This document shows, piece by piece, positions 33,983 through 50,096 of a stretch of DNA of 64,000 bases. The first letter of the stretch is position 1; every line of letters starts with the position of its first letter. The stretch covers positions 4,364 to 68,363 of the forward strand of contig JBBRAY010000017.1 in the NCBI GenBank assembly GCA_038206355.1. Reading direction: 5' to 3'. The position numbers and the translations under genes are program-made. Under the pieces are notes generated by a model that had not been told where the DNA came from, ran no database searches, and saw only the letters and a program-made list of their open reading frames with translations. The DNA comes from Bacteroidia bacterium (GTDB lineage Bacteria; Bacteroidota; Bacteroidia; AKYH767-A; 2013-40CM-41-45).

Positions 33983-34237
33983 ACCCATTCTACTTTTTAT
34001 CCTGATCAGCGCATTCACAAATTTGCTGCTTTTCTTTTTATTAAACCTCCCGCAGTTTATTTTTTCAAAAATATTTTTTTATCCAATAATTAAATTCCAT
34101 CTCCAATTTCGATTACGATTCTTAAAACCTATATGCCTGCCTGGATTGTAAGCCCGGCTGTTCTTTTCTTTTTAGCAGCCACATCCGCTTTTTAATGCAA
34201 CCATCTTCTGATGAAGAAGATTGTGTATTTTTCAAAA
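33983..34237. repeat. Cassette leader repeat, copy 1 (~250 bp, near-identical to 35936..36181)
   Basis: Two blocks (about 110 bp and 105 bp) are almost identical between the copies, separated by a ~40-bp diverged core. It contains the ATCTTC-TGATG-GAAGAT hairpin immediately 5' of the downstream gene. Confidence 0.85.
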
Positions 34238-34251
34238 CTAAAAATATCATT

Positions 34252-35091
34252 ATGAAAATAATAATTCTTCTTTTCGTTCTAAGCATTTCCTTATTGTTAA
34301 CAACTGCTTCTAAAGCCCAAATAATTCTGGAACATACTCTGGATTCAACTGGCGTTCCCTATTTTTATTATACTGATATCGGGAACAACGATTTTAAATA
34401 TGTTTTTCTCAATCGAGCATTAAATAGTTTTAGCTTGTTTAATATGGATATGTCACCATTCCTTATAAATATTAGTATCCCTGTAACCAATGATTCAATT
34501 TCCCAGGGGTTTGGTGTTATATATATCACGAAAACTTTATTTGATTGCGACTCTACAAACCTTGAATATGTTTATGAAAATCCTTACAGCGTCAATAGTA
34601 AGTTTCGTGTATTTAGAACAGACGGAACAATGTTACTTGAGGTGGATAGTGCCAACGGTCCATATTATTTAGGAGGAGGAATTTATGGGGGCTCCAATGA
34701 TTTCAGACCAATTGCAAATACATCAGATGGAACAAAATTGTTTTTACAGAAATACAATAATAATGGCATACCAGAGATATTAATTTATGGTTTGTGCGGT
34801 ATTCTTCCATTGCACATTTATGATTTCAGAGACATGAAATCATACGTACAAATATTTCCTAATCCAGTAAATCAGGAATTAAATTTTGAAATCTCGTTGC
34901 CAAATAATCATGAAGAATTTCAAATTACAATTTTTGATACGAATTCCAAGGAACAAAAAAAGCAGTGTATTTCATTATCTCAAAACAAATGTGTTCTTGA
35001 TGTGAGAAATTACAACAGTGGTACCTATTTCTATTCCCTTTCCTCAAAGAATAAAATATATCAAAGTGGTAAATTTATGATATCAAAGTAA
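34252..35091 (+). CDS. T9SS-sorted hypothetical protein, cassette gene 1, copy a (the ORF track extends to 34195 through the repeat)
   Basis: The start at MKIIILLF has a signal peptide. The TLFDCDSTNLEY motif is shared with its paralog. The C-terminus (YVQIFPNPVNQELNFEI...GTYFYSLSSKNKIYQSGKFMISK) is T9SS sorting-domain-like. Confidence 0.65.
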   Translation: MKIIILLFVLSISLLLTTASKAQIILEHTLDSTGVPYFYYTDIGNNDFKYVFLNRALNSFSLFNMDMSPFLINISIPVTNDSISQGFGVIYITKTLFDCDSTNLEYVYENPYSVNSKFRVFRTDGTMLLEVDSANGPYYLGGGIYGGSNDFRPIANTSDGTKLFLQKYNNNGIPEILIYGLCGILPLHIYDFRDMKSYVQIFPNPVNQELNFEISLPNNHEEFQITIFDTNSKEQKKQCISLSQNKCVLDVRNYNSGTYFYSLSSKNKIYQSGKFMISK

Positions 35092-35132
35092 AATTAATAA
35101 AAATAAATCTTAACTTCAAAAAATAAATACAA

Positions 35133-35831
35133 ATGAAAAATCAATTCAAACTGATAACATTAACCATATTGGTAATCGTCAGTGCCCAATTCAATTCTGC
35201 CGTTGGGCAGGTAACAGTTCCTACAAATGGGATTACTTCTACCGATTATGTCGGCAGTAGTAATCCTAATGATGTATTGTTTAAAGGAAATGGAAATCTT
35301 TATTTAAAACTATTGCAAAGCAACGGTAATCTTGGTTTAAGTAACCCAACAAATTGGGCTGGCGGTTTTGTTCCTAATTTTAGTTTAGATGTAGATGCCG
35401 GAGACATTAATTTAAACACCTTCACCAATGCATATCGTATTGGCGATGGCTCAACAGGTAATAGTGTTCCTGTACTTTGGCATAACGGTATTATCAGCAG
35501 TATTTATGTAGGCGTTGGAGCAGGGAACTCAACAAGCGCGGCTACGGAGAATACCTTTGTTGGTAACAATTGCGGAAATATTATTGGACTTGGGGGCTCC
35601 AATACTTTTGTAGGGTACAATTCGGGAGCCTTAAATACAGGTGGTTCACTAAACACTTATATTGGTAGCAGCGCCGGTCCGATAAGCACTACAGGAGATG
35701 CAAATACTTTTATTGGAAATGAGTCCGGATTTTCTAATATAACCGGCGGGGAAAACACCTTTGTTGGCGCACTCAGCGGCCATACCAGTAATGGCGGTGG
35801 CGGAAATACCTTTATTGGTGCAAGGGTATAA
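35133..35831 (+). CDS. Gly-rich fibre-like repeat protein, N-terminal module only (cassette gene 2, copy a). It lacks the stalk, the S74 module and the sorting domain
   Basis: Signal peptide. NTF(V/I)G beta-helix-like repeats. The last ~105 aa are encoded by a block ~98% identical in nucleotides to 37390..37702. It ends (..GNTFIGARV*) where copy b continues. Confidence 0.6.
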   Translation: MKNQFKLITLTILVIVSAQFNSAVGQVTVPTNGITSTDYVGSSNPNDVLFKGNGNLYLKLLQSNGNLGLSNPTNWAGGFVPNFSLDVDAGDINLNTFTNAYRIGDGSTGNSVPVLWHNGIISSIYVGVGAGNSTSAATENTFVGNNCGNIIGLGGSNTFVGYNSGALNTGGSLNTYIGSSAGPISTTGDANTFIGNESGFSNITGGENTFVGALSGHTSNGGGGNTFIGARV

Positions 35832-35935
35832 TCCGGAAATTAAAATCATTTCTCTTTCTGATGGAAATTTTTCTGTATATTTAGTCTCAGTAATCTAAAT
35901 CAGTAATGGAAACATCCCCTCTCGTTTCTCTTTTA

Positions 35936-36181
35936 CTTTTTATCCTGATCAGCGCATTCACAAATTTGCTGCTTTTCTTTTTATTAAACCTCCCGCAGTT
36001 TACTTTTTCAAAAATTTTTTTTTACCCGCTCGGTAAATTCAATCTTACGTTTCGGTTGCAAATCTTAAAACCTGTATGCCTGCCTGGATTGTAAGCCCGG
36101 CTGCTCTTTTCTTTTTAGCAGCCACATCCGCTTTTTAATGCAACCATCTTCTGATGAAGAAGATTGTGTATTTTTCAAAAA
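35936..36181. repeat. Cassette leader repeat, copy 2
   Basis: See copy 1. Both copies carry TATGCCTGCCTGGATTGTAAGCCCGGCTG..TTTTTAGCAGCCACATCCGCTTTTTAATGCAACCATCTTCTGATGAAGAAGATTGTGTATTTTTCAAAA. Confidence 0.85.
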
Positions 36182-36197
36182 AATAAAAATTAATTCT

Positions 36198-37022
36198 ATG
36201 AAAATAATTCCGTTTGTTTTGATGTTACTGTTAAGTATTTTAAGCAAAGCTCAATTTACTTTTGAGCAAACCTATATAATAGGCGGAGGACATGAATCGC
36301 CTTTTCTAACCAATCTTGGAAACAATAATTTCAAGTGGGTTTTGAATGACTATTTCCACGACAAGTTCAGTTTGTACAATTTGGATCACAGTCCATTTTT
36401 GGTAAATATACCATACGCCGTTTCTTCTGATTCAGGACAATCGTACGCATTAGGTTATATTACAAATACATTATTTGATTGCGACAGCACAAACATTGAA
36501 TATACTTTGATGAGCGCATCTCCGAATCCTGCTCGAAAATTTATGGTGTACAGAACGGATGGTACGCTCTTGTTTTCTAAGGACAGCGTTACAGTTCCTT
36601 ATGCTCTCGGTGCTAATGTTGGAAGCGTTTCATGGCATGGTGTAACTAATACAAATGGAGGAACTAAACTGACGCTCTTTAAAGCCATCTCAGGTCAATT
36701 TCAATTTAACATATATGGGCTATGTGGAATATTGCCTGAAAATATAACAGAGATCTACCAATCGTCATCTTTTGTTCAAGTTTCACCTGTGCCATCTTCG
36801 AACCAGGTAAAATTCAGGATAATTCCTCCCGGCAACCTGGATGAATACAATTTAATAATTTTTAATTCGGAATATCAAACCATACAAACTACAAGTATTC
36901 CCACAGGACGTGAGACTGAAATAAACCTGGACGGCCAGTCTTTAAGTACAGGAACTTATTTCTATTCTCTGCAAAACAAAAACAAAATATTTCAAACAGG
37001 AAAATTCATTATTTCAAAATAA
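36198..37022 (+). CDS. T9SS-sorted hypothetical protein, cassette gene 1, copy b (paralog of 34252..35091 at roughly 40% identity)
   Basis: MKIIPFVLMLLLSILSKAQ signal. TLFDCDSTNIEY and YGLCGILP are shared with copy a. The C-terminus (FVQVSPVPSSNQVKFRI...GTYFYSLQNKNKIFQTGKFIISK) is T9SS sorting-domain-like. Confidence 0.65.
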   Translation: MKIIPFVLMLLLSILSKAQFTFEQTYIIGGGHESPFLTNLGNNNFKWVLNDYFHDKFSLYNLDHSPFLVNIPYAVSSDSGQSYALGYITNTLFDCDSTNIEYTLMSASPNPARKFMVYRTDGTLLFSKDSVTVPYALGANVGSVSWHGVTNTNGGTKLTLFKAISGQFQFNIYGLCGILPENITEIYQSSSFVQVSPVPSSNQVKFRIIPPGNLDEYNLIIFNSEYQTIQTTSIPTGRETEINLDGQSLSTGTYFYSLQNKNKIFQTGKFIISK

Positions 37023-37059
37023 AATTCTTTAAACAACATACACTTAATTCTTAAATAAA

Positions 37060-39614
37060 ATGAAAAAAAGTATATCCTTTACAGTTATCATCTGGATAAT
37101 TATGCTATTTAATTTTAGCATGAATGCACAGACTACCGTCCCTGCAAATTCACCTTCATTAGCTACTGACCATCTTGGATGGGATGTAAACTCTTATTTA
37201 ACCGTTAATTCTCTCGATATAGCAACTAAAGATGTTGGGGCTAATGCAATTCCTATTAATTTTTATACAGATAATACTTTATTCCTCCAAGTTCTCACCG
37301 GTGGAGATTTGAATATCGCGCAACCTACCAATGGCTATATGATAGACAACGATTTTGTGCTGCGGCATAATGGAACCGTATCAAGCATCTATGTAGGCGT
37401 TGGCGCAGGGAACTCAACAAGCGCGGCTACGGAGAATACCTTTGTTGGTAACAATTGCGGAAATATTATTGGACTTGGGGCTCCAATACTTTTGTAGGGT
37501 ACAATTCGGGGGCATTAAATACAGGTGGTTCACTAAACACTTATATTGGTAGCAGCGCCGGTCCGTTAAGCACTACAGGAGATGCAAATACTTTTATTGG
37601 AAATGAGTCCGGATTTTCTAATATAACCGGCGGGGAAAACACCTTTGTTGGCGCACTCAGCGGCCATACCAGTAATGGGGGTGGCGGAAATACCTTTATT
37701 GGAAATTCGGCCGGATATGTAATGTAGAATAGGAGTGGCTGTACTTTTGTTGGAAATTCGAGCGGCTATAATACAACAGAAAGAGGTAATTCATTTTTCG
37801 GCGGTGATGCGGGTGCATCCACAACTGAAGGCACGTATAACACTTTTATTGGCTATGAAGGCGGCAATGGGAATGTGTCAGGGAGTTTCAATTCAGCTAT
37901 TGGTTTTCAGGCTGGTTTTAATAATGGTTCAGGTAATTACAATACACTTCTGGGCTGCACAGCAACTGTTCAAAGCGGTGCCACTCGTCTTAATTGTACG
38001 GCAGTTGGTGCCAATACCATTGTACCAGGGAGTAATCAACTCATACTTGGTGGTAATACTATTGGCACTACTCATAATGATGTAAATGTCGGCATAGGAT
38101 TATCGGGAGATAATACCGGGGCAAATGGTCTTGGCTATGAAGGACCTGCTGTTAAGCTTGAAATAAACGCAGATGCCAACAGTTTTGCTTATACAAGTGC
38201 CGGTAGTGGATTGCGCTTTAGGCAACTTACAACTGCCAATGATGTTACTGCCAACCCCGGACCAGGATTATTGTCAGTAACCGAGGACGGAGATGTTATA
38301 TATGTTGAAGACATCGGAAATTACTGTAATGAAACACCGCAAAGAGCATTACGTGCTGATTATGAAATTCCGCTTTATGATAATATTGGCATGACAGGTC
38401 ACGATTATTATTTTACAGGATCATCAATTGGCGTTACGGACATTATTGTTGGGGAACCTGTTTGTGGTACAAACCCCATTCCGAGTTCAAAATTTCAATC
38501 CTATCAGTTAATGAATCAGGGCGTTCCGAGCTATGCCGGTTATTTTAAAAATAGTACGGATGACAAAACCGCGGTAGGTGCATTGGGAATATCAGATGCA
38601 TCACAGAACATTAATTTTGGTCTGCAAGGTTTTGTAAGAGAGTATAGAGGTAAATCTAATTATGGTGTTCTTGGAGCGACCATTCCGAACCCAGCAGCAC
38701 TAATAGGCAATATTAATATTGGCGTTTATGGCTATGCTAACCTGAATCCTGATCCAGCAATCTCAAAGAGGAACTATGCTGTAGTTGGTGACTTAGGTCC
38801 TATGTGTGCCGCTTGTACTTCGGGTACAGCCGGAGGATTTCTTGATTTTGCCGGATATTTTAATGGAGATTTGTTTACAACTGCCGGATTTTACACACCT
38901 TCAGATTCAACTCTTAAGGAAAACATTCAGGATATTACTAACCCGATGGATATAATAAATTCATTGAATCCTAAATCGTATACTTTTAAACAGCAAGGTA
39001 ACGAATCAATGCATTTATCGAGCGGCACGCATTACGGTTTGTTAGCTCAGAATATTGCTTTAGTATTACCTTTCGCAGTAAAAGATTGTATTCATCCGGC
39101 TCGATACGATTCACTGGGAAACCAAACGCACGATGAAATAGATTTCAAAGGAGTTAACAATTTAGAAATAATTCCATTCCTGATTGCAGCAGTGAAAGAG
39201 CAAGAACAGACGATTGAAGCAATGCAAGCAGAAATTGCTACACTTAATGGCGGAGGCAATCGCCAAAACCATCATAGTGGTGAAGAAGAGAATTCTAGTG
39301 ATGAAGAACAAGGCACTCGTTCCTCCATTGATGTTGAATTGCAAAACGCAAAATCAATCATCCTCAACCAAAATGTACCTAACCCGTTTGCAGAGCAAAC
39401 AACCATTACCTACTTTCTTACTGATGATGTAAAGAAAGCACAAATGTTCTTTTATGATAACAAAGGAACGATCTTAAAAACGGTTGACATCAATGAAAAA
39501 GGTGAGGGGCAAATTAATGTTTTCGCTGCAGATCTCAGCAGTGGAAACTATACCTACACTCTTGTCGCTGATGGAAAAGTTATGGATACTAAGAAAATGA
39601 TTAAGACAAACTAA
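37060..39614 (+). pseudogene. Full-length fibre-like protein (cassette gene 2, copy b), interrupted by a 1-nt G-run frameshift near 37485 and an in-frame TAG at 37725..37727. Its modules are signal peptide, Gly-rich NTFxG repeats, a stalk, a peptidase-S74 intramolecular-chaperone module, an acidic linker and a T9SS C-terminal sorting domain
   Basis: The ORF pieces 37060..37497, 37455..37727 and 37875..39614 are colinear. G4 here versus G5 in copy a (35596) accounts for the frameshift. Translation continues in the same frame straight through the TAG. SDSTLKENIQDITNPMD...KSYTFK...HYGLLAQNIALVLPFAVK is the auto-cleaving tail-spike chaperone signature. The C-terminus (NVPNPFAEQTTITYFL...GNYTYTLVADGKVMDTKKMIKTN) is T9SS sorting-domain-like. 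Confidence 0.6.
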
Positions 39615-39716: not shown

Positions 39717-40784
39717 TCAAACCTTTTTACACTTCAACAGCGAATGATAAACCCCGATATCATCCGTTTGCTCCGCAATTGTAAATCCTGCCTTCTCCAC
39801 ACATTGCTGAAATACTTTTGAATAATACATCTGACTGTTGCCATTGGCGATAGTGGTGAAGTACAGCGAAGTCATCTGTAAGCAAAAAGCAGAAGTTTCA
39901 AAATCCTGTTGGTCCCACAATGTTTCCATAATGTAAACATGCCCGGCTTCCGATACTGCGTCACGGCAGCGACTCAGGATTGAAACAATTTCATCGTCAG
40001 AAAAACAATCCAGAAACTGGCTCATCCAGATGGCATCAAATCCCTGAGGAAATTTTTTATCGCCTTCGAGAATATTATTTTCGAAAAATGAAATGCGGTT
40101 GCTCAGTCCGAGTTCGGCTACATTTTTCTTCGCCATCTCTAATTGTCCGGGCAAATCCATAATGGTAACATGCACATCGGGATCATGTTTCACGCATTGT
40201 ATCGCCCACTTGCCCGTGTTGCCACCAATATCAAGCAGGTGTTTGGGCTTGTCTTTGAATATAGCTTTCAATGCATACGGAAAGGCATGGTCAGAATAAT
40301 AATGATCGAAGCCAAACCAGCTTCGCTGTACATGTACAGGTAGTTTCGACAACCCTTCATACACCGTTTTCCAGTTTCCAAAAACTTTTAGTCCTTCCGG
40401 CTTTCCGTTTCTGATGGATTCATCAAGACGAAACAACCCTTCATAGCAAACATCATGTGTGAAGTCCATATTCGCTTTCGTCATCGGATCATTCAGAATA
40501 AAATAACCCGTTTTACTCAGGCGGTATTTTTCATCATCCCACAATAACAAACCAATACCCAATCCTGCTTCCATGAGTACACGCGCACCATAATGACTCA
40601 GGTTACATTTTTTCTCCACCTGTTCAATGGTTACAGCATTAGGTTTTTGCGATTCTATATATTCCAGTATTCCGAAATCACGCAAGGCACGCGATGCCTG
40701 AAAAACAAATGGTGCATAAGCTATCCACTGTGCATTTTCCTTTGCTTCAAGAGCAGTCTTTACTTCCTTTTTGAAAAAATCCAT
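39717..40784 (-). CDS. Class I SAM-dependent O-methyltransferase (dimerisation domain plus Methyltransf_2-like)
   Basis: LLDIGGNTGKWAIQ is SAM-binding motif I, followed by the acidic motif II (IMDLP). 355 aa. It borders the pigment-type fatty-acid-synthase-like cluster. Confidence 0.7.
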   Translation of the reverse strand: MDFFKKEVKTALEAKENAQWIAYAPFVFQASRALRDFGILEYIESQKPNAVTIEQVEKKCNLSHYGARVLMEAGLGIGLLLWDDEKYRLSKTGYFILNDPMTKANMDFTHDVCYEGLFRLDESIRNGKPEGLKVFGNWKTVYEGLSKLPVHVQRSWFGFDHYYSDHAFPYALKAIFKDKPKHLLDIGGNTGKWAIQCVKHDPDVHVTIMDLPGQLEMAKKNVAELGLSNRISFFENNILEGDKKFPQGFDAIWMSQFLDCFSDDEIVSILSRCRDAVSEAGHVYIMETLWDQQDFETSAFCLQMTSLYFTTIANGNSQMYYSKVFQQCVEKAGFTIAEQTDDIGVYHSLLKCKKV

Positions 40785-40811
40785 AGGCCGGCAAAGAGAA
40801 GAAAAAAATCT

Positions 40812-41354
40812 TTAATTCACGATAAACTTTCCGTTCATTTTCTGATAATGGCCGGGATAGGTGCAAATGAAATCATACGTTCCTTTTTCAGGAGCAGGAA
40901 AAGTGATCTCTGTTTTTTCTTTCGGCGCCGTCATTTTTGTTGACACGAGTACCTGTTTCATTTTTGGAACGTAATCGTTATCAGCTCCTGCTTTCATTCC
41001 CTCAGGTCCTACTTTTTCGGCAGAACCTTCATCAATAAGTACAAAATTATGCGACATGGAAACGTCAGTGCTTTCATTGATAAATAAAAGATGGACTGTA
41101 CTTCCGGCTTTAACACGAAGTTCCTTCAGATCATAACTCATATCAGCCATTGAATTTCCCATTGCTTTGAGCGTCACTTCTACAACCGGCGCAGCAGGAT
41201 CAATTTTAATAGGATCATAAGCAGGACCTTCATCCATCAGATTGGAAGGAGCTGCAGTTTCGGGTTCAGCAGGAGCCTGTTTTTGCCCGTTGTTGCTGCA
41301 GGATGAGATAAAAAAACATGCTGCAATTGAAATTAATGATGCGTACTTTTTCAT
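40812..41354 (-). CDS. Azurin-family blue (type-1) copper protein, lipoprotein
   Basis: Lipobox FISSCSNN. Ligand motifs SHNFVL and CTYPGHYQKMNG (the azurin C-x-x-P-G-H-x-x-x-M signature). Confidence 0.75.
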   Translation of the reverse strand: MKKYASLISIAACFFISSCSNNGQKQAPAEPETAAPSNLMDEGPAYDPIKIDPAAPVVEVTLKAMGNSMADMSYDLKELRVKAGSTVHLLFINESTDVSMSHNFVLIDEGSAEKVGPEGMKAGADNDYVPKMKQVLVSTKMTAPKEKTEITFPAPEKGTYDFICTYPGHYQKMNGKFIVN

Positions 41355-41682
41355 GGTAAAAGAATTTAGCGTATAAAAGTAGTTATAAAATTTATGGTAT
41401 CAGGAAAGAATCCCCATGGTGAAGTAGCTCAGATTCAATTTGTAAAAAAATACATGCAACGAATTTCACTAATTAACACTAAACATACAGAAGACATGAA
41501 ATTCTTAATAAATTGAATTACACAAATAAGGATCCAATTTTGTTAAATAATAACCAACCGATGCATTGGTGTTAATTCGTGAAATTCGTGGCAGATCTTT
41601 TCAAAACTTATTCACTACCCTTGCTACATACCCTGCCACATGAAAATAATTTAAGTAATATTGAACCCCGAATTAAAAATTT

Positions 41683-43221
41683 ATGGTTTCAATAGGCGAT
41701 CGCTACCTGGCGCTGGAGGATTTAATTGCAATTGTGGAACAAAACCGTAAAGTTGAGTTGAATGACACAGCTACACGAAGAGTTTACCAGAGCTATTATT
41801 TCCTAAAAGAGTTCATCAAGGAAAAACTGATTTACGGTATTAATACCGGCTTCGGCCCTATGGCCCGTTACCGCATCAATGCTGAAGACCAGGTAGACCT
41901 CCAGTTCAACCTCATACGCAGCCATTGCAGCGGAAGCGGTGCCATGATTGACCCACTTTTTGTAAAAGCAACATTGATTGCACGTCTCAATACCTTGCTT
42001 TTGGGCTATTCCGGAATCCATCCTGATGCTGTTGAATTGCTGAAGGAGATGATCAACCACGATGTGCTTCCTGTCATATACGAACATGGCGGTTTGGGCG
42101 CCAGCGGTGACCTCGTCCAACTTGCACATGTGGCGCTTTCCATGATCGGCGAAGGAAATGTAATTCATGCTGGCACAGTGAAAAAAACCGCCGACGTATT
42201 TGCAAAAGAAAAAATTACTCCGTTGCAAGTTCATATCAGAGAAGGACTTGCGTTGATGAACGGCACCTCTGCCATGTGCGGAATTGGTGCTTTGAATATC
42301 AGCAATGCAAAAAACCTGATGAACTGGTCGGTGGCCATTTCATCCATGATCGTAGAACTTGTTGAATCGTATGACGACCACTATTCTTCCGAACTGAATA
42401 ACGTAAAGCAGCATGAAGGCCAGAGAAAGGTGGCCGGAATGATGAGGGCATTTCTGGTTGACAGTAAAATGGTGAAGAGCCGTGAAGAGCATCTGTACAA
42501 CAGAAAGATTGACGAGAATATCCTAAAGGAAAAAGTACAGGAATATTATTCCATCCGCTGCGTGCCGCAAATTCTCGGACCGGTTTACGACACCATTGCA
42601 AACGCGGAAAAAGTGGTGATGGATGAAATCAATTCAGTGAATGACAATCCTGTTATTGATTATGAAAATAAAAATGTTTTTCACGGAGGAAATTTTCACG
42701 GAGATTATGTGGCATTGGAGATGGACAAACTAAAAATTGCCGTTGCCAAACTATCTATGTTGTGCGAACGACAACTTAATTTCCTAATGAACGACCACCT
42801 GAACGGAAAGCTTCCGCCTTTTGTAAATCTCGGAAAACTCGGATTGAATATCGGCATGCAGGGCACACAGTTTACGGCAACTTCTACCGTTGCAGAAAAT
42901 CAAATGCTCTCCAACCCGATGTATGTTCACAGCATTCCAAGCAATAACGACAACCAGGATATCGTAAGTATGGGATCAAATGCTGCGCTGATAGCTGCAA
43001 AGGTGATCAACAATTCATTTGAAATAATAGCCATTGAATTAATTTCTCTCGTTCAGGCCATTGATTACCTCGGCATTGCAAATAAACTTTCATCAGCATC
43101 TAAAGTTGTTTACCATGATGTCAGGAAATTAGTTCCTGTCTTCAAGAGCGATGAGATCATGTACGAGCGTGTAAAAATTGTAAAGGATTTTTTAAAAAAC
43201 AATAAGAAAAATCTCAATTGA
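41683..43221 (+). CDS. Aromatic amino-acid ammonia-lyase (HAL/PAL/TAL family, MIO-forming)
   Basis: GGLGASGDL MIO tripeptide. NTGFGP, and conserved Tyr, Arg and Asn lyase residues. 512 aa. Its neighbours argue for a tyrosine/phenylalanine starter-unit role rather than histidine catabolism. Confidence 0.85.
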   Translation: MVSIGDRYLALEDLIAIVEQNRKVELNDTATRRVYQSYYFLKEFIKEKLIYGINTGFGPMARYRINAEDQVDLQFNLIRSHCSGSGAMIDPLFVKATLIARLNTLLLGYSGIHPDAVELLKEMINHDVLPVIYEHGGLGASGDLVQLAHVALSMIGEGNVIHAGTVKKTADVFAKEKITPLQVHIREGLALMNGTSAMCGIGALNISNAKNLMNWSVAISSMIVELVESYDDHYSSELNNVKQHEGQRKVAGMMRAFLVDSKMVKSREEHLYNRKIDENILKEKVQEYYSIRCVPQILGPVYDTIANAEKVVMDEINSVNDNPVIDYENKNVFHGGNFHGDYVALEMDKLKIAVAKLSMLCERQLNFLMNDHLNGKLPPFVNLGKLGLNIGMQGTQFTATSTVAENQMLSNPMYVHSIPSNNDNQDIVSMGSNAALIAAKVINNSFEIIAIELISLVQAIDYLGIANKLSSASKVVYHDVRKLVPVFKSDEIMYERVKIVKDFLKNNKKNLN

Positions 43222-43266
43222 AATAATGTCGGCTGCTCCCAATCAACTTTATCAACCTTTTCACCA

Positions 43267-43995
43267 ATGAAATACGCATTAGTCACCGGAGGATCTCGAG
43301 GAATCGGCAAGGCCATTTGTCTGAAACTGGCAGAGCTGGGATATTTTGTGCTCATCAATTATCAGTCAAATAAAAAAGCAGCAGAAGAAACATTAGCTGA
43401 AGTAAGAGCAAAAGGAAGTGATGGCGAACTGATGATGTTTGACGTAGCAGACGAAACCCGGGTGAATGCTGTGCTCGGCGGATGGATTGAAAATCACAAA
43501 GAAGAACCAATAGAAATTCTCGTCAACAATGCAGGAATAAAAAACGATACTTTGCTGATGTGGATGAGTACGAAGCAATGGAAAGACGTATTGAATACCA
43601 GTGTAGATGGTTTCTTTTACGTTACCAAGGTCGTGGTTCAGGGAATGATCGTAAAGAAGTACGGAAGAATTGTGAACGTTGTTTCATTGTCGGGATTAAA
43701 AGGAATGCCGGGACAAGTGAATTATTCCGCTGCAAAAGCGGCTGTAATAGGCGCTACAAAAGCACTGGCGCAGGAAGTAGGAAGAAGAAACATTACGGTG
43801 AATGCTGTTGCTCCGGGATTTATAAGGACGGACATGACGAAAGAAATTGACGAGAAAAGTTTCAAGCAATTAATTCCGGTGGCGCGTTTCGGAAACCCTG
43901 AAGAAGTCGCAGAAGCCGTTTGTTTCCTTGCATCAGAAAAAGCGTCGTATATTACAGGGACCATACTAAACGTCAATGGCGGATTGTACACTTAG
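43267..43995 (+). CDS. fabG: 3-oxoacyl-ACP reductase (SDR)
   Basis: TGGSRGIGKA, NNAG and the YSAAK catalytic triad. Confidence 0.8.
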   Translation: MKYALVTGGSRGIGKAICLKLAELGYFVLINYQSNKKAAEETLAEVRAKGSDGELMMFDVADETRVNAVLGGWIENHKEEPIEILVNNAGIKNDTLLMWMSTKQWKDVLNTSVDGFFYVTKVVVQGMIVKKYGRIVNVVSLSGLKGMPGQVNYSAAKAAVIGATKALAQEVGRRNITVNAVAPGFIRTDMTKEIDEKSFKQLIPVARFGNPEEVAEAVCFLASEKASYITGTILNVNGGLYT

Positions 43996-44030
43996 TCACA
44001 TAATCACTTAATCACGTAGTCACTTCCAAA

Positions 44031-45254
44031 ATGAACAGAGTAGTAATAACAGGCATGGGGGTTTATTCCTGCCTGGGGAAAAATTTAGAAGAGGTTCGCA
44101 ATTCTTTATACACAGGGAAATCAGGTATTGGTTTTGATCCCGAAAGAAAAGCGTTTGGATTTCGATCAGGTCTAACAGGTATTGTAGAAAAACCACAACT
44201 GAAAGGAAAACTGGACCGCAGGCTGAGAATTGGATTGGCAGAAGAAGGAGAATACGCATACCTCTCTACCCTCGAAGCATTGGCAAACGCAAAGCTTGAT
44301 ACTGAATATCTTGATTCTCATGAAGCAGGAATTATTTTCGGTAACGATAGTTCTGCACTTGCTGTAGTTGAAGCAACAGATACCATCCGTTTGAAAAAGG
44401 ATACTACGCTTTTGGGATCTGGGTCTATTTTTCAGAGTATGAACTCAACGGTGAACATGAACCTTGCAACAATTTTCAAACTGAAAGGAATTAATTTCAC
44501 CGTGAGTGCAGCTTGTGCAAGTGGATCTCATGCGGCAGGATTGGGATTTTTATTTATCAAAGAAGGTTACCAGGACATAGTAATCTGTGGCGGTGCGCAA
44601 GAAGTAAATATGTATTCGATGGGAAGTTTCGATGGACTCAGTGCATTCTCCATCAGGGAAAATGAACCGGCAAAAGCTTCACGGCCGTTTGATAAATCAC
44701 GTGATGGATTAATTCCAAGTGGCGGAGCGGCAACAATTGTACTGGAAAGTTTAGAGAGCGCTCAAAGACGAGGTGCGAATATTCTCGGAGAAATTATCGG
44801 ATACGGATTTTCATCCAACGGCGACCATATCTCCAATCCCAACGTTGACGGGCCATACCGTTCACTGATGCGCGCCATGAAACAATCCGGTCTAAATATT
44901 TCTGACATTGACTATATCAATGCACATGCGACTTCCACTCCCAATGGTGATATGTTTGAAGCACGCGCTATTGATAAACTTTGCGGTGACGTAAAAACAG
45001 CTGTCAGTTCTACCAAATCAATGACAGGCCATGAATGCTGGATGGCAGGTGCAAGTGAAATTGTTTATTCATTGCTGATGATGCGCGATTCTTTTGTTGC
45101 GCCCAACATCAACTTCGAAACTCCTGATGAAGATTCGGCCAAGCTCAACATTATTGCGAAAACACTCGATAAGAATATTGATATTTTTCTATCCAACTCG
45201 TTTGGATTTGGAGGAACCAATTCGACAATTATCGTAAAGAAATTCAGAAATTAA
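44031..45254 (+). CDS. Beta-ketoacyl-ACP synthase (KAS I/II type)
   Basis: Active-site Cys in SAACASGSHAAG. The two His are in NAHATSTPNGD and KSMTGHECWMAGA. Confidence 0.85.
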   Translation: MNRVVITGMGVYSCLGKNLEEVRNSLYTGKSGIGFDPERKAFGFRSGLTGIVEKPQLKGKLDRRLRIGLAEEGEYAYLSTLEALANAKLDTEYLDSHEAGIIFGNDSSALAVVEATDTIRLKKDTTLLGSGSIFQSMNSTVNMNLATIFKLKGINFTVSAACASGSHAAGLGFLFIKEGYQDIVICGGAQEVNMYSMGSFDGLSAFSIRENEPAKASRPFDKSRDGLIPSGGAATIVLESLESAQRRGANILGEIIGYGFSSNGDHISNPNVDGPYRSLMRAMKQSGLNISDIDYINAHATSTPNGDMFEARAIDKLCGDVKTAVSSTKSMTGHECWMAGASEIVYSLLMMRDSFVAPNINFETPDEDSAKLNIIAKTLDKNIDIFLSNSFGFGGTNSTIIVKKFRN

Positions 45255-45277: not shown

Positions 45278-46747
45278 TCACCGGCACACCACCAGTTTTT
45301 TTGTGATGATTCCCCTATCAGTTTTCACGTTGACAAAATAAATCCCTGCCCCAAAGGCACCAATGTCAATTTCGTTTTTTATACCTGTCCTTATTACTCC
45401 CTTGTAAACTTCCTTCTGTAGGATATTAAATACTGAAATATCCATGATCTTATCCGGGAACAATACACTTTCCAATACCAATTGAAATTTCCCCATATTG
45501 GGATTTGGGAACACCTGCATCATTTCCTGAAGTGAAATGTCATTGGTACCAATCACGGAACAAAGTCCGCTAACCTGAACCGGAGAAGTCGCACTGGTAT
45601 TATTTCCATTTCCCAATTGACCGTATGAATTGTCTCCCCACGTCCATACCGTTCCGTCATTTTTCAAAACCGTAGAACTGATTTGATTACCCTGCATGGA
45701 TATTACAGTACTTATGGTATTAACCTGTACAAAAGTGCTGGTACTTGTAGTTGTTCCATTTCCCAATTCACCCCAGTCATTGGTTCCGCAGGCCCAATAG
45801 GTTCCGTTATTCTTAAGTACCATTGCATGCTTACCGCCGGCTTCAATGGCAACAATACCGGTTAATGATAAGGCTTGCACAGGAACATTATATGCATTTG
45901 CAAAAACGCCCGTACCCATTTGACCTTCGTTATTATCTCCCCATCCCCACACAGTACCGTCACTTTTTAATGCCATAGAATGGGCCACATCGCCTGATAT
46001 CGCTATTACATTATCTAATCCGCTTACCTGAACCGGTACATTGCTGTTTGTATTATTTCCGTTTCCAAGCTGTCCGTAATTATTATCGCCGGTACACCAA
46101 ACAGTTCCGTTATTCTTCAGAAAAATACTGTGGTTGGTACCTGCAGCTATTGCACTTACCTCACTCAAAGCGGTTACCTGAACAGGTGTATTTGTATTTG
46201 TGGTACTTCCATTTCCAAACTGACCAATATCATTACTGCCCCATGCCCAAACTGTTCCATCATTCCTTATGGCAAGTGAATGTCCGTTCGCGGCTGCGAT
46301 TGCGACAATACCTGTCAGAGAATTTACATGAACTGGAACGTTGCTGTTTGAATTGGTACCATTACCAAGCTGGCCATAAAGATTAAATCCCCAAGCCCAA
46401 ACTGAACCATCATTTTTCAATGCCAGGGAATGAAAAACTCCAGCAGCGACAGCTTTTACATCTGTAAGTGTACTCACCTGAACAGGAACATTGCTGCTTG
46501 TAGTTGTTCCATTTCCTAGTTGACCATAAGAATTATCTCCCCACGAACGTACGCTGTTATTGGTGCACAAAGCAAGCGAATGATATGAACCACCGGCAAT
46601 TGACTGTGACCATGAATTACCGGTTGAAATCAAATTTATCAGTAGAATAAAAATGATTGCTGAAAATCCTGACGATAATGATTGTAGTTTTTTATTCATT
46701 TTAAATGGCTCAATGTATTTATGTATTGCACAATAATACAAATTCAA
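45278..46747 (-). CDS. RCC1-repeat (seven-bladed beta-propeller) protein with T9SS C-terminal sorting domain
   Basis: At least seven tandem ~50-aa GDN.YGQLGNG.......PV.V repeats. The C-terminus (MQVFPNPNMGKFQLVLES...GIYFVNVKTDRGIITKKLVVCR) is T9SS sorting-domain-like. Confidence 0.75.
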   Translation of the reverse strand: MNLYYCAIHKYIEPFKMNKKLQSLSSGFSAIIFILLINLISTGNSWSQSIAGGSYHSLALCTNNSVRSWGDNSYGQLGNGTTTSSNVPVQVSTLTDVKAVAAGVFHSLALKNDGSVWAWGFNLYGQLGNGTNSNSNVPVHVNSLTGIVAIAAANGHSLAIRNDGTVWAWGSNDIGQFGNGSTTNTNTPVQVTALSEVSAIAAGTNHSIFLKNNGTVWCTGDNNYGQLGNGNNTNSNVPVQVSGLDNVIAISGDVAHSMALKSDGTVWGWGDNNEGQMGTGVFANAYNVPVQALSLTGIVAIEAGGKHAMVLKNNGTYWACGTNDWGELGNGTTTSTSTFVQVNTISTVISMQGNQISSTVLKNDGTVWTWGDNSYGQLGNGNNTSATSPVQVSGLCSVIGTNDISLQEMMQVFPNPNMGKFQLVLESVLFPDKIMDISVFNILQKEVYKGVIRTGIKNEIDIGAFGAGIYFVNVKTDRGIITKKLVVCR

Positions 46748-48800: not shown

Positions 48801-50096
48801 ATGAATAAAAATCTACTTCTGTCATTAGTATGTCTGTTTTCCCTCCTCAGAATTAACGCATATGCACAGCCCGCAGATGCTGAAGTTGCAACATTTGCAT
48901 CGCCTGCAATGCAGTATTTTTGCCCGGCCCAGATGCCAATCACTATTAATATTTATAACAATGACCTGGTTGACATTACCGATGTAGCATTAACATGGAC
49001 CATCGATGGCGTTTCTCAATCTCCCGTTTCATGGTCAGGTCTGATTGCAGCCGGTGACATCGCTCCCGTTGAACTTACTACTGCTCACGATTTTTTAAGC
49101 GGGACCGGTTACAATATCGAAGTTACCATTCAATCAGTAAATGGAATGGCCGATCCGAATTCCGCAAATGATGTCGGTTCAGAAACATTTACTGCGTACG
49201 ATGTCTTCATTCCCATTTTTTACTGGAACGGATGTTCACTTGAATGCCTGAACTTCACAGATTACATTTCAATACAGTGGTATAAGGATGGAGTACCGGA
49301 TCCCGATGCTCCTGATAATGCAATTTATACTCCGTCACATAGCGGCTCTTACACGATGATAGGTTTGACTTTTGACTCCTGTGACGCAACTACAGACTCA
49401 TCTATTTTTGTAACTCCGCCTACACATGATATTACTCCCCTTGGTGTAATTGCCTTTTGTGAAGGCGATTCAGTTGGACTTGTATTCACATCCAGCGAGC
49501 AGGTATTTTATTCCTGGAATACAGGAAGCATGGATGATACGATTTACGCAAGTATGGATGGATGGTATGCTGTAAACGGAGTTACCGTGTTTTCCTGTCC
49601 GGTTATCGACAGCATTTATGTTACCGTTTATCCTACTCCTGTCGTTTCAATCAGCGACATGAATGATACACTGGTCTCAACATACAGCGGCTTACACCAA
49701 TGGTATTTTAACGGCAGTCCGATTGGTGGTGCACATGATTCCACTTTTGTGCCAACTGCTTCAGGGATTTATTATACCACCGTAACTGATATTAATGGGT
49801 GCACAGGAACGTCCAATTCAATCAACTGGATTTTCCCGGGTATCAGCATTCCTGTTGAAGTGACAGATATCATGATTTATCCGAATCCTGCTAAAGATAT
49901 AATTAATGTCCGATTCAATAACGGAAATGAAGATCTGGCGTTGACCATTTTTGATGCTGTTGGCCGCCTTGTCCTGCAAGATGAAATCAATGCAGACAAA
50001 ACCATCAATATTTCCGGATTAAAAGAAGGTGTTTATCAGTGTGTGTTTACAGGAGAAAAGGTAAGATTCTCGAAAAAACTGGTGAAGACTTTTTAA
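48801..50096 (+). CDS. Secreted Ig-like-repeat protein with T9SS C-terminal sorting domain
   Basis: Signal peptide. The C-terminus (IMIYPNPAKDIINVRFNN...GVYQCVFTGEKVRFSKKLVKTF) is T9SS sorting-domain-like. Confidence 0.6.
   Translation: MNKNLLLSLVCLFSLLRINAYAQPADAEVATFASPAMQYFCPAQMPITINIYNNDLVDITDVALTWTIDGVSQSPVSWSGLIAAGDIAPVELTTAHDFLSGTGYNIEVTIQSVNGMADPNSANDVGSETFTAYDVFIPIFYWNGCSLECLNFTDYISIQWYKDGVPDPDAPDNAIYTPSHSGSYTMIGLTFDSCDATTDSSIFVTPPTHDITPLGVIAFCEGDSVGLVFTSSEQVFYSWNTGSMDDTIYASMDGWYAVNGVTVFSCPVIDSIYVTVYPTPVVSISDMNDTLVSTYSGLHQWYFNGSPIGGAHDSTFVPTASGIYYTTVTDINGCTGTSNSINWIFPGISIPVEVTDIMIYPNPAKDIINVRFNNGNEDLALTIFDAVGRLVLQDEINADKTINISGLKEGVYQCVFTGEKVRFSKKLVKTF

What the first reader, a model, noticed from the sequence alone, without database searches (positions are those of the whole stretch)
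37875..39614. Phage tail-spike intramolecular chaperone (S74) module fused upstream of a T9SS sorting domain
The full-length fibre ends in four parts: SDSTLKENIQDITNPMDIINSLNPKSYTFK...HYGLLAQNIALVLPFAVK, then a helix (EQEQTIEAMQAEIATL), then an acidic linker, then a canonical T9SS sorting domain. S74 modules fold trimeric phage fibres and then excise themselves at the Ser of the SD..LKENI motif. Here excision would also remove the T9SS sorting domain, so the secretion signal and an autoproteolytic trimerisation chaperone sit in series. This implies a secreted, trimeric, phage-fibre-like surface filament.
Basis: partly seen in the sequence, partly recalled or inferred. Interest (0 to 1): 0.7.

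Follow-up and report, generated by a model that had tools for sequence, protein, structure and literature searches.

The report
Self-cleaving fibre module before T9SS signal
This is a broken copy of a common but unstudied Bacteroidota surface-fibre gene, in which a phage-type self-cleaving trimerisation domain sits directly before the type IX secretion signal, so it is unclear how self-cleavage and export are ordered.

Summary
ORF 37875-39614 carries a Peptidase_S74 intramolecular-chaperone (IMC) domain (49.7 bits, cut-off 22). Its Ser343/Lys348 dyad is invariant in 68 homologs. A disordered acidic linker and a terminal T9SS type A sorting domain follow (TIGR04183 23.4 bits against cut-off 23; Pfam 22.1 against 27). 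The predicted fold matches the MyRF and endosialidase chaperones.

Three corrections apply:
- The "helix" is the coiled-coil end of the IMC, not a separate part.
- The gene is chromosomal, not prophage.
- This copy is broken. The real gene starts at 37060 with a signal peptide. A 1-nt loss in a G-run (37477-37480) and an in-frame TAG (37725) interrupt it, so the 579-aa ORF has no export signal.

The IMC-linker-sorting-domain module is common. It gives 1202 protein clusters at E<=1e-30 and at least 433 hits in species-representative genomes, nearly all labelled Bacteroidota. NCBI names these "tail fiber domain-containing protein". No searched paper discusses S74 together with T9SS. The closest studied relatives are the Bdellovibrio MAT-S74 fibres.

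The likely mechanism in intact members is Sec export, IMC-driven trimerisation, T9SS export, then self-cleavage that discards chaperone and signal together. The order of these steps is inferred. This is a new variant of a known kind, of moderate interest.

The parts
37060..37497 (+). 5' fragment of the fibre gene. It encodes the start codon, a Sec signal peptide (MKKSISFTVIIWIIMLFNFSMNAQ), the N-terminal domain and the first NTFVG-type repeats. It runs out of frame after the G-run.
   Evidence: ORF list and three-frame translation. It is colinear with the intact homologs P0002 and P0005.
37477..37480 (+). Frameshift site. The run is GGGG here and GGGGG in the near-identical paralogous patch upstream, about 1.88 kb away.
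   Evidence: DNA alignment of the two cassette copies, repeat spacing 1885 against 1884, and sequence print.
37725..37727 (+). In-frame TAG, at the position where P0002 has Leu (..FFMLNQSGC..).
37875..39614 (+). The 579-aa ORF of the finding. It is the 3' two-thirds of the fibre gene from the first in-frame start codon after the TAG, and it has no signal peptide.
   Evidence: The identical 579-aa protein is in the public protein collection from an NCBI source as P0001.
37875..38084 (+). Last YadA/EibD-like head repeats, of the type seen in trimeric autotransporter adhesin heads (aa 1-70).
   Evidence: Weak phmmer hit to the EibD head 2xqh, aa 6-81, E=0.099. Three homologs (P0066, P0072, P0117) carry PF05658 YadA_head in precomputed Pfam hits; it was re-scanned here for P0072, 28.4 bits against cut-off 25. 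pLDDT is 80-91.
38085..38900 (+). Beta-rich shaft or tip region (aa 71-342), including a VGIGLS...P..KLEI loop motif. It would become the C-terminal end of the mature fibre after cleavage.
   Evidence: Low monomer pLDDT of 46-70. This is the most variable folded part of the family, with median identity 34%.
38901..39251 (+). S74 intramolecular chaperone / autoprotease domain (aa 343-459). The predicted scissile bond is Pro342|Ser343. The catalytic Ser343 codon is 38901-38903 and the Lys348 codon is 38916-38918. The aromatic pair is Tyr369/Phe371. The C-terminal coiled-coil helix is aa 433-459 (nt 39171-39251).
   Evidence: Pfam 49.7 bits. S343, D344 and K348 are invariant in 68 of 68 sequences, and the aromatic pair is conserved. 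pLDDT is 79-93. Foldseek finds 7dc3 MyRF ICA at E=4e-7 with TM 0.76-0.79, and 3gw6. The family profile hits 6f45 at E=5.5e-17 and 7dc3 at E=2.8e-10. Residue equivalences come from PMC8326128.
39252..39362 (+). Disordered acidic linker (aa 460-496).
   Evidence: pLDDT 30-46. A linker is present in every homolog (20-65 aa, median 38) but its sequence is poorly conserved.
39363..39611 (+). T9SS type A C-terminal sorting domain (aa 497-579). The HMM match covers aa 502-577 (nt 39378-39605).
   Evidence: TIGR04183 23.4 bits against cut-off 23. Pfam 22.1 bits against 27. The model gives several beta strands, as expected for a beta-sandwich, at pLDDT about 90. P502, N503 and P504 are invariant. All 10 homologs tested hit TIGR04183 and 8 of them pass the cut-off.
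36198..37022 (+). Conserved upstream partner gene: about 275 aa, with a signal peptide, an all-beta domain of about 160 aa and a T9SS type A sorting domain.
   Evidence: The same gene lies immediately upstream of the fibre in L001 and L003, and homologs lie upstream of the fibre match in L004-L007, L026 and L040. The family has at least 163 members. The model has pLDDT 88.8 and no solved relative for the N-terminal domain.
34195..35091 (+). Paralogous copy of the partner gene, in the first cassette.
   Evidence: Por_Secre_tail 41.8 bits. 44% identity to the second copy. Repeat families D1 and D4.
35133..35831 (+). Truncated paralog of the fibre gene (232 aa). It has a signal peptide, an N-terminal domain and head repeats, then breaks off. 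It has no IMC and no sorting domain.

Best explanation
The region is the 3' part of a chromosomal Bacteroidota (Flavobacteriales-like) gene for a fibre-type surface protein. NCBI names this family "tail fiber domain-containing protein".

An intact member reads, from N to C terminus:
- Sec signal peptide and N-terminal domain
- YadA-like head repeats
- beta-rich shaft or tip
- S74 intramolecular chaperone with an SDxxxK Ser-Lys dyad and a terminal coiled-coil helix
- a flexible linker of about 40 aa
- T9SS type A sorting domain

Proposed mechanism for intact members:
1. Sec exports the protein to the periplasm.
2. The C-terminal S74 domain nucleates a homotrimer and templates fibre folding from the C to the N terminus.
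3. The three sorting domains, held on long flexible linkers, recruit the precursor to the T9SS translocon.
4. The trimer-activated Ser343/Lys348 dyad cuts the Pro342|Ser343 bond. The mature fibre is freed from one disposable piece that holds both the chaperone and the secretion signal.

For export to work, cleavage must follow translocation. Alternatively, the cut chaperone must stay bound until translocation is over.

The domain identities and the dyad are shown here. Trimerisation, T9SS dependence, cleavage and the order of steps are inferred.

In this window the copy is disrupted by a 1-nt deletion in a G-run and by a TAG codon. As assembled, the 579-aa ORF lacks a signal peptide and is most likely a pseudogene fragment, unless these lesions are assembly errors.
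For: Domain identity:
- Pfam S74 scores 49.7 bits against cut-off 22, and TIGR04183 scores 23.4 against 23.
- The AlphaFold model is confident for the IMC and the sorting domain and shows a disordered linker.
- Foldseek's top PDB hits are the MyRF ICA domain and the endoNF chaperone.
- The family profile hits phage S16 gp37 at E=5.5e-17 and MyRF at E=2.8e-10. Both alignments run through the terminal helix.

Catalytic competence:
- S343, D344 and K348 are invariant in 68 of 68 homologs, and the Y369/F371 aromatic pair is conserved.
- These residues align with MyRF S587, K592, Y615 and Y617. In MyRF, S587A and K592A abolish cleavage, the cut is P586|S587, and cleavage requires the trimer (PMC8326128).
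- A chromosomal bacterial fibre with the same SDxxxK motif, Bd3182, self-cleaves at its Ser (PMC10769870).

The module is a conserved unit:
- Ser-to-C-terminus length is 215-265 aa in 67 of 68 homologs.
- There are 1202 clusters at E<=1e-30, and the listed matches that cover the whole module end within a few residues of the protein's C terminus.
- The module is attached to different trimer-forming passengers: YadA-head repeats or collagen repeats.

Cellular, T9SS-using context:
- Neighbours are housekeeping and pigment-type genes.
- The syntenic locus L003 has an intact 795-aa gene with a signal peptide.
- At least 9 other proteins in this window carry type A sorting domains.
- Hits are almost all labelled Bacteroidota.
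- Phage records match only the IMC part.

Disruption of this copy.
Against: - No experiment or multimer model supports trimerisation or cleavage for this family.
- The sorting domain is below Pfam's gathering score and only just above the TIGR04183 cut-off.
- T9SS cargo is proposed to fold in the periplasm before export (PMC10202324), and S74 domains cleave once the trimer forms. A simple reading therefore predicts loss of the signal before export, and the proposed order needs an unproven delay or a persisting non-covalent complex.
- The copy in this window is interrupted twice, so nothing can be said about its own function.
- The homolog sets were seeded partly on sorting-domain words, which inflates how universal the sorting domain looks.
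Confidence: 0.6

Rival explanations
1. Anchor-then-shed, as in MyRF. The uncleaved trimer is exported. PorU removes the sorting domains and links the linker end of the IMC to anionic LPS, so the IMC acts as the cell-surface anchor. Slow or triggered self-cleavage later releases the fibre from the cell. If the Ser-Lys site is kept inactive, the fibre stays attached.
For: - Type A sorting domains are normally cut by PorU and replaced by A-LPS (abstracts of PMC8545088 and PMC4804311, listed).
- In MyRF the same domain sits before a membrane anchor, and its cleavage releases the N-terminal trimer (abstracts).
- MYRF cleavage can be gated by partner proteins (PMC12803276 abstract).
- The long flexible linker would suit a tether.
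Against: - Nothing here shows PorU processing or A-LPS attachment in this lineage.
- Many non-Porphyromonas T9SS cargos are simply released.
- A shed fibre has no obvious function unless its N-terminal domain keeps it on the cell, as proposed for the Bdellovibrio MAT fibres.
Confidence: 0.2
2. This copy is a dead gene. The locus is a decaying, rearranging adhesin cassette, and the ORF is a pseudogene fragment with no present function. This reading concerns this window only and is compatible with the family-level mechanism.
For: - There are two independent lesions, a frameshift at 37477-37480 and a TAG at 37725.
- The 579-aa ORF starts inside a repeat and has no signal peptide.
- The upstream paralog is truncated at 232 aa.
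- The homologs in L001 and L003 are intact.
Against: - The frameshift lies in a homopolymer inside a patch about 340 nt long and about 99% identical to the paralog. Assemblers and polishers err in such places.
- The source looks like a metagenome-assembled contig.
- The downstream 1.7 kb is an uninterrupted ORF with all invariant residues kept, so any inactivation is recent.
Confidence: 0.5
3. The S74 domain here serves only as a trimerisation domain and stays in the mature protein. Under this reading the sorting domain is never lost through self-cleavage.
For: The cleavage-incompetent S587A form of the MyRF ICA domain was crystallised as three chains (7dc3 A-C), so trimerisation does not appear to need cleavage. 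Cleavage was not tested for any member of this family.
Against: Ser, Asp and Lys of SDxxxK are invariant in 68 of 68 sequences spanning 30-63% overall identity, and the aromatic residues around the cutting site are kept. Such conservation is hard to explain without catalysis.
Confidence: 0.1
4. It is a prophage or phage tail-fibre gene, and the terminal beta-sandwich is a receptor-binding tip rather than a secretion signal.
For: - The IMC region matches 102 phage tail-fibre records.
- The Pfam Por_Secre_tail score is below the gathering threshold.
- Two IMG/VR contigs encode the IMC-plus-sorting-domain module.
Against: - No phage genes are nearby, and the flanks are housekeeping genes conserved in synteny in L003.
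- Phage hits stop at aa 481 at the latest, short of the sorting domain, and mostly by about aa 458.
- In L081 the gene lies outside the repressor and Mu-type transposase end of the prophage. The L082 neighbours are not phage-like.
- The domain has the type A sorting-domain motifs, sits at the extreme C terminus, and its carriers are almost all labelled Bacteroidota.
Confidence: 0.03

Closest known systems
Bdellovibrio bacteriovorus MAT (mosaic adhesive trimer) fibres, S74 subgroup, e.g. Bd3182 (Caulton et al. 2024, PMC10769870)
   Same: Both are chromosomal bacterial genes, not phage genes. Both encode a signal peptide, a long trimeric fibre and a C-terminal S74 domain with the SDxxxK motif. 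Bd3182 self-cleaves at its Ser. Both occur as multi-paralog repertoires. The family profile also matches the beta-helix and capping-loop unit of Bd3182 (8ojn, E=1.2e-5) and of Bd2439 (8ol4, E=1.8e-4).
   Different: S74-group MAT proteins end at the S74 domain, and their export route is unknown. Here the S74 domain is followed by a linker and a T9SS sorting domain. The host phylum differs (Bacteroidota against Bdellovibrionota). The conserved 130-aa N-terminal MAT domain was not shown here. The MAT paper and its three held supplementary files contain no mention of T9SS or Bacteroidetes.
Phage C-terminal intramolecular chaperone domains: endosialidase endoNF of phage K1F (3gw6), T5 L-shaped fibre pb1, S16 gp37 (6f45)
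   Same: They share the fold, the Ser-Lys dyad and the terminal helix. They also share a position at the C-terminal end of a trimeric fibre.
   Different: In phages the IMC is the last domain, and folding takes place in the host cytoplasm. Nothing has to be secreted. Sequence identity is only about 28-35% and is limited to the IMC.
Eukaryotic MYRF ICA domain (7dc3)
   Same: It is the best structural match (E=4e-7, TM 0.76-0.79). The dyad, the Pro|Ser cut site and the aromatic pair are the same. As here, the domain is followed by a targeting or anchoring element, so cleavage separates the N-terminal trimer from it.
   Different: The downstream element in MYRF is an ER transmembrane helix, not a secretion signal. 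The passenger is a transcription factor.
Trimeric autotransporter adhesins (YadA, EibD)
   Same: The head-type repeats are similar (weak hit to EibD, E=0.099; YadA_head in the homolog P0072). Both are obligate trimers nucleated from the C terminus, and both are surface fibres.
   Different: There is no C-terminal beta-barrel translocator. Trimerisation and export are assigned to two separate modules, the S74 domain and the T9SS sorting domain.
Canonical T9SS type A cargo (gingipains, and other sorting-domain proteins in this window)
   Same: Both have an N-terminal signal peptide (in intact homologs) and a terminal type A sorting domain preceded by a flexible linker.
   Different: I am not aware, from my own knowledge, of any described cargo that is an obligate homotrimer or that carries its own protease site just upstream of the sorting domain. 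The T9SS effector review PMC10202324 contains neither 'trimer' nor 'oligomer'.

Membership tests
Peptidase_S74 / intramolecular chaperone auto-processing (ICA/CIMCD) domain | Significant match to the family HMM (PF13884) | tested here: met
   E=4.4e-13, 49.7 bits against gathering score 22, aa 343-402. All 6 homologs scanned score 31-64 bits.
Peptidase_S74 / intramolecular chaperone auto-processing (ICA/CIMCD) domain | Ser-Lys catalytic dyad in an S-D-x-x-x-K motif at the N-terminal edge of the domain | tested here: met
   S343-D-S-T-L-K348. S, D and K are invariant in 68 of 68 sequences. They align to the A587 (S587A)/K592 positions of 7dc3. The motif definition comes from PMC8326128 and PMC10769870.
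Peptidase_S74 / intramolecular chaperone auto-processing (ICA/CIMCD) domain | ICA fold, including the C-terminal helix that forms the trimeric coiled coil | tested here: met
   AF2 pLDDT is 79-93 for aa 340-460, with a helix at 433-459. Foldseek finds 7dc3 at E=4e-7 with TM 0.76-0.79, and 3gw6. This is a monomer model only.
Peptidase_S74 / intramolecular chaperone auto-processing (ICA/CIMCD) domain | Homotrimerisation and self-cleavage at the Ser | not testable with these tools
   No multimer prediction or biochemistry is available. Inferred from conserved residues.
T9SS type A cargo (C-terminal sorting domain, TIGR04183 / PF18962) | HMM match at or above the curated cut-off | tested here: inconclusive
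   TIGR04183 scores 23.4 against 23, a bare pass. PF18962 scores 22.1 against 27, a fail. All 10 homologs tested hit TIGR04183 and 8 of them pass. The L081 relative scores 34 bits in Pfam.
T9SS type A cargo (C-terminal sorting domain, TIGR04183 / PF18962) | Domain at the extreme C terminus with a beta-sandwich fold and the PNPF / GxY / terminal K-x-K motifs | tested here: met
   The match ends 2 residues before the stop. The model shows several beta strands at pLDDT about 90. P502, N503, P504, G557 and Y561 are invariant. The motif names are from my own knowledge of the sorting-domain literature.
T9SS type A cargo (C-terminal sorting domain, TIGR04183 / PF18962) | N-terminal Sec signal peptide on the same polypeptide | tested here: not met
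   The 579-aa ORF has none. The signal peptide is on the 37060 fragment, cut off by a frameshift and a TAG. It is met in the intact homologs P0002 and P0005.
T9SS type A cargo (C-terminal sorting domain, TIGR04183 / PF18962) | Host encodes a T9SS, and secretion depends on it | not tested
   No T9SS machinery gene was looked for. Indirect support: at least 9 other proteins with type A sorting domains in the window, and relatives almost all labelled Bacteroidota.
MAT (mosaic adhesive trimer) superfamily of Bdellovibrio | Conserved beta-rich domain of about 130 aa right after the signal peptide | not tested
   No MAT N-terminal domain sequence or structure was available for comparison. The paper says this domain has no PDB homologue.
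MAT (mosaic adhesive trimer) superfamily of Bdellovibrio | Trimeric beta-helix units with the V-G-G/N-x-x-x-P-x-x-x-L capping-loop motif, optionally ending in S74 | tested here: inconclusive
   The family profile matches the Bd3182 fragment 8ojn (E=1.2e-5) over a ..GfvGiGt..P...L.v.. unit, and matches Bd2439 8ol4 (E=1.8e-4). In the window copy the motif is degenerate or carries an insertion (VGIGLS...GPAVKLEI).
Trimeric autotransporter adhesins (type Vc) | C-terminal 12-strand trimeric beta-barrel anchor | tested here: not met
   No such domain was found in the Pfam or NCBIfam scans. The C terminus is occupied by the S74 domain and the sorting domain. Only the head-type repeats resemble TAAs.

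The most novel reading that the evidence does not exclude
The IMC-linker-sorting-domain tandem defines a large, unstudied class of obligately trimeric T9SS cargo, with more than 1000 clusters at 50% identity. In this class a built-in, trimer-activated protease removes the secretion signal together with the folding chaperone.

If true, one of two things follows. Either T9SS can move pre-assembled trimeric fibres while cleavage is held back, or the fibres assemble from the C to the N terminus on the cell surface as they emerge. In both cases signal removal would not need PorU. The conserved upstream 275-aa sorting-domain protein could be the fibre's dedicated surface partner.
Probability: 0.3. 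Interest if true: 0.7.

Novelty: new variant of a known kind. Interest (0 to 1): 0.5.

Why it matters
T9SS cargo is usually treated as monomeric proteins whose signal is removed by the PorU sortase. S74 chaperones are usually treated as a phage (and MYRF) device that acts where the protein is made. A family with over a thousand clusters puts the two in series, and this raises a concrete, testable question: when does a self-cleaving trimerisation domain fire relative to outer-membrane translocation?

The answer would show whether T9SS can carry assembled oligomers and whether signal removal can bypass PorU. The proteins are also likely adhesins of abundant environmental Bacteroidota, comparable to the prey-recognition MAT fibres of Bdellovibrio.

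For this particular window the biological weight is low, because the copy is disrupted.

Tried and rejected
- Prophage origin was rejected from the gene neighbourhood, synteny with L003, phage-database hits confined to the IMC, and near absence from IMG/VR (3 loci). The best of those loci lies outside a Mu-like prophage end.
- The exact-sequence look-up of P0001 for its contig found nothing. The cluster look-up gave no name or accession. The source organism is therefore known only as a relative of uncultured Flavobacteriales MAGs.
- Literature searches for S74 or intramolecular chaperone combined with T9SS or Bacteroidetes found nothing relevant. The only lead is a 362-aa "tail fiber domain-containing protein" in a Tannerella forsythia vesicle proteome. 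Whether it carries a sorting domain could not be checked.
- The fold search for the upstream partner protein returned only generic Ig-like sandwiches matching its sorting domain, so no function could be assigned.
It was replaced by a scan of 10 members.
- Programmed frameshifting or phase variation at the G-run was considered and set aside. The run is only 4-5 G long, and the homologs in L001 and L003 are uninterrupted.
- The split RND pump gene at 7849-7852 was checked as a possible sign of assembly indel errors. It is split exactly between the two halves with an ATGA overlap, so it is uninformative.
Full report
**1. The observation**

SDSTLKENI begins at aa 343 (nt 38901), HYGLLAQN at aa 386, EQEQTIEAMQAEIATL at aa 442, and the protein ends in ...KKMIKTN.

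- Pfam finds Peptidase_S74 (PF13884) at aa 343-402 with E=4.4e-13, 49.7 bits against a gathering score of 22.
- Pfam finds Por_Secre_tail at aa 502-576 with 22.1 bits, below its gathering score of 27.
- NCBIfam TIGR04183 (T9SS type A sorting domain) scores 23.4 bits against a cut-off of 23.

**2. Anatomy of the C-terminal module**

I aligned the ORF with 67 homologs (alignment A1). S343, D344 and K348 are invariant, as are P502, N503 and P504 and several Gly and Tyr residues of the sorting domain. The aromatic pair Y369/F371 is conserved as Tyr or Phe in nearly all sequences.

An AlphaFold2 monomer model built on this alignment gives these confidences:

| Segment | Residues | pLDDT |
|---|---|---|
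| IMC, ending in a helix at 433-459 | 340-460 | 79-93 |
| Linker | 461-505 | 30-46 |
| C-terminal beta-stranded domain (sorting domain) | 508-577 | about 90 |

Foldseek against the PDB puts the MyRF ICA domain first (7dc3, E=4e-7, TM 0.76-0.79 on the target), followed by the endosialidase intramolecular chaperone 3gw6. A profile built from the family hits the phage S16 long-tail-fibre IMC (6f45, E=5.5e-17) and MyRF (E=2.8e-10). Both alignments run through the terminal helix.

The "helix" is therefore part of the S74 chaperone. PMC8326128 reports that in MyRF this C-terminal triple coiled coil is the main driver of trimerisation. The same paper reports that S587 and K592 (equivalent to endoNF S911 and K916) form the catalytic dyad, that the cut is P586|S587, and that cleavage is activated only in the trimer. 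In the window protein the aligned residues are P342|S343, K348, Y369 and F371.

**3. The gene is broken in this window**

The reading frame is open upstream of the GTG that the ORF lister used. A gene starts at 37060 with a typical signal peptide (MKKSISFTVIIWIIMLFNFSMNAQ). It runs through NTFVG-type repeats and loses its frame at a G-run (GGGG at 37477-37480). It resumes in the frame of the 579-aa ORF and then meets an in-frame TAG at 37725-37727.

A near-identical paralogous patch upstream has GGGGG and reads through. The TAG sits where the homolog P0002 has Leu. Repairing both lesions gives an 851-aa protein that is colinear with P0002 (898 aa, 57.8% identity) across both sites.

As assembled, the 579-aa ORF begins inside a repeat and has no signal peptide, so its sorting domain could never reach the periplasm. 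This copy is either a recent pseudogene or the product of assembly errors. The frameshift lies in a homopolymer within a repeated patch about 340 nt long at about 99% identity, a place where assemblies fail. The TAG lies just outside that patch. I cannot decide between the two explanations without reads.

**4. Locus structure**

The region 33988-37702 is a diverged tandem duplication of a two-gene cassette. Each cassette holds a protein of about 275 aa with a type A sorting domain (34195-35091 and 36198-37022), followed by a fibre gene. The first fibre copy (35133-35831) is truncated after 232 aa.

The partner gene lies immediately upstream of the fibre in L001 and L003. Homologs lie upstream of the fibre match in L004 (two copies), L005, L006, L007, L026 and L040. 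It belongs to an unnamed family of at least 163 proteins. Its model is confident (pLDDT 88.8). Apart from sandwiches that match its sorting domain, it has no solved structural relative by Foldseek.

**5. The context is cellular, not viral**

The neighbours are a GH3-family protein, a deoxynucleoside kinase, an O-methyltransferase, a cupredoxin, an aromatic amino-acid lyase, a ketoreductase and a ketosynthase. The same order is found in L003, from an uncultured Flavobacteriales MAG, where the fibre gene is intact at 795 aa.

Phage genomes match only aa ~265-481 (mostly ~314-458), the IMC and its near flanks, at 27-35% identity in the listed rows. A scan of 2.9 million viral contigs returned three loci. 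In the best one the gene lies to the left of a CI-type repressor and Mu-type transposase genes, so it is probably in the host flank. The second has no phage-like neighbours.

The window itself encodes at least nine other proteins with type A sorting domains. I take this as indirect evidence that the organism uses T9SS. I did not search for the machinery genes.

**6. How common the architecture is**

- The word-indexed search returned 194 relatives. Most are 700-1000 aa, and most carry precomputed PF13884 plus PF18962. NCBI names them "tail fiber domain-containing protein", and JGI sometimes names them "trimeric autotransporter adhesin".
- An exhaustive phmmer search with aa 335-579 (IMC, linker and sorting domain) found 15914 proteins at E<=1e-3, 7774 at E<=1e-10 and 1202 at E<=1e-30 among 50%-identity representatives. 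In the 150 best, matches that cover the whole module end within a few residues of the C terminus of the protein, which is 143-1375 aa long.
- A scan of one genome per species found at least 433 encoded relatives. Nearly all are labelled Bacteroidota (Flavobacteriales including Fluviicola, Taishania, Brumimicrobium and Lishizhenia; Chitinophagaceae; Sphingobacteriaceae), often with several paralogs per genome.
- The passenger varies. It is usually YadA-head-like repeats (PF05658 in the homolog P0072; a weak EibD hit for the window protein) and sometimes collagen repeats.
- The distance from the catalytic Ser to the C terminus is nearly constant, at 215-265 aa in 67 of 68 sequences.
- Within alignment A1 the sorting domain is the best-conserved part (median 61% identity). 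The IMC has 41%, the shaft 34% and the linker 26%. This ranking is partly an artefact, because both searches were seeded on conserved words of the sorting domain.

**7. Mechanism**

*Shown here:*
- the domain order;
- the intact and invariant dyad;
- the chaperone fold;
- the flexible linker;
- the terminal sorting domain;
- a signal peptide in intact homologs;
- restriction of almost all hits to a T9SS-bearing phylum.

*Inferred from the named families:*
- The S74 domain trimerises through its terminal helix, templates fibre folding and cuts N-terminal to its Ser once the trimer has formed (PMC8326128; PMC10769870).
- The sorting domain directs outer-membrane translocation and is normally removed afterwards (abstracts listed).

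The unresolved point is timing. T9SS effectors are proposed to fold in the periplasm before recruitment (PMC10202324), and S74 domains cleave upon trimerisation. Export therefore needs one of three things:
- delayed cleavage;
- a cleaved chaperone that stays bound until translocation is over;
- assembly on the outer face as the C terminus emerges.

I favour cleavage after or during translocation as the working model, with overall confidence about 0.6. A MyRF-like "anchor then shed" version, in which PorU links the IMC tail to LPS, is the main rival.

**8. Comparison with what is known**

The closest characterised system is the S74 subgroup of the Bdellovibrio MAT fibres. These are chromosomal, carry a signal peptide, are trimeric and have an SDxxxK motif. 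Self-cleavage has been demonstrated for Bd3182. The family profile even matches the beta-helix and capping-loop unit of Bd3182 and Bd2439.

S74-group MAT proteins, however, end at the S74 domain. That paper and its three held supplementary files never mention T9SS or Bacteroidetes. Eight literature searches found no paper that treats S74 or intramolecular chaperones together with T9SS.

The architecture is thus recorded in databases but, as far as the searchable library shows, has not been described or tested.

**9. Verdict**

This is a new variant of a known kind: an S74-terminated trimeric fibre coupled to T9SS. It is represented here by a disrupted copy. Interest is moderate. The family-level question is real and testable, but the architecture is widespread and already annotated, this instance is probably non-functional, and every mechanistic step beyond domain identity is inferred.

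Noticed in passing
window 33988-37702: A diverged tandem duplication of a two-gene cassette (small sorting-domain protein plus fibre gene). The coding parts are only about 50-60% identical. The upstream intergenic region is about 90% identical (repeat family D1: 89%). A patch of about 340 nt inside the fibre genes is about 99% identical, which suggests gene conversion or an assembly join. The first fibre copy (35133-35831) is truncated at 232 aa.
   Followed up: partly
window 34195-35091 and 36198-37022; L001 531-1367; L003 4384-5217: A family of about 275-aa proteins (signal peptide, all-beta domain of about 160 aa with an invariant FDCDS motif, type A sorting domain). The gene lies immediately upstream of the fibre in the closest loci. 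It has no name and no solved structural relative for the N-terminal domain. It may be a fibre partner or anchor.
   Followed up: partly
homologs in alignment A1, linker after the IMC helix: Many homologs have a CC or C..C motif (e.g. NCINGLNLCG, SCCSN) immediately after the coiled-coil helix. These could form inter-chain disulfides that lock the chaperone trimer. The window copy lacks the motif.
   Followed up: no
window 39717-45254: Immediately downstream lies a pigment-type biosynthetic set: an O-methyltransferase (minus strand), a cupredoxin, an aromatic amino-acid ammonia-lyase, a ketoreductase and a ketosynthase. It resembles a flexirubin/aryl-polyene cluster, and its order is conserved in L003.
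   Followed up: no
window 6572-9780: A CusA/AcrB-type RND pump is encoded as two ORFs, split exactly between its two halves (profile positions 1-420 and 417-1020) with an ATGA stop/start overlap at 7849-7852. It is either a natural split or another frameshift.
   Followed up: partly
window 1218-2948, 18870-20312, 20513-22933, 45278-46747, 48801-50096, 56425-61335: The window has an unusually high density of T9SS type A cargo. It includes a multicopper oxidase, an RCC1-repeat protein and a 1636-aa PKD/Ig-repeat protein, all with clear Por_Secre_tail hits (35-57 bits).
   Followed up: no
L053 and L075: Two full-length relatives with the sorting domain lie on contigs labelled Akkermansia sp. and Brevifollis sp. 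(Verrucomicrobiota), a phylum not known for T9SS. These are probably taxonomic mislabels or binning errors.
   Followed up: no
L081 1-1194 and 3354-7827: In an IMG/VR contig an S74-plus-sorting-domain gene (Pfam 52.7 and 34.1 bits) lies about 2 kb from the repressor and Mu-type transposase A/B end of a transposable prophage. It is probably in the host flank.
   Followed up: partly
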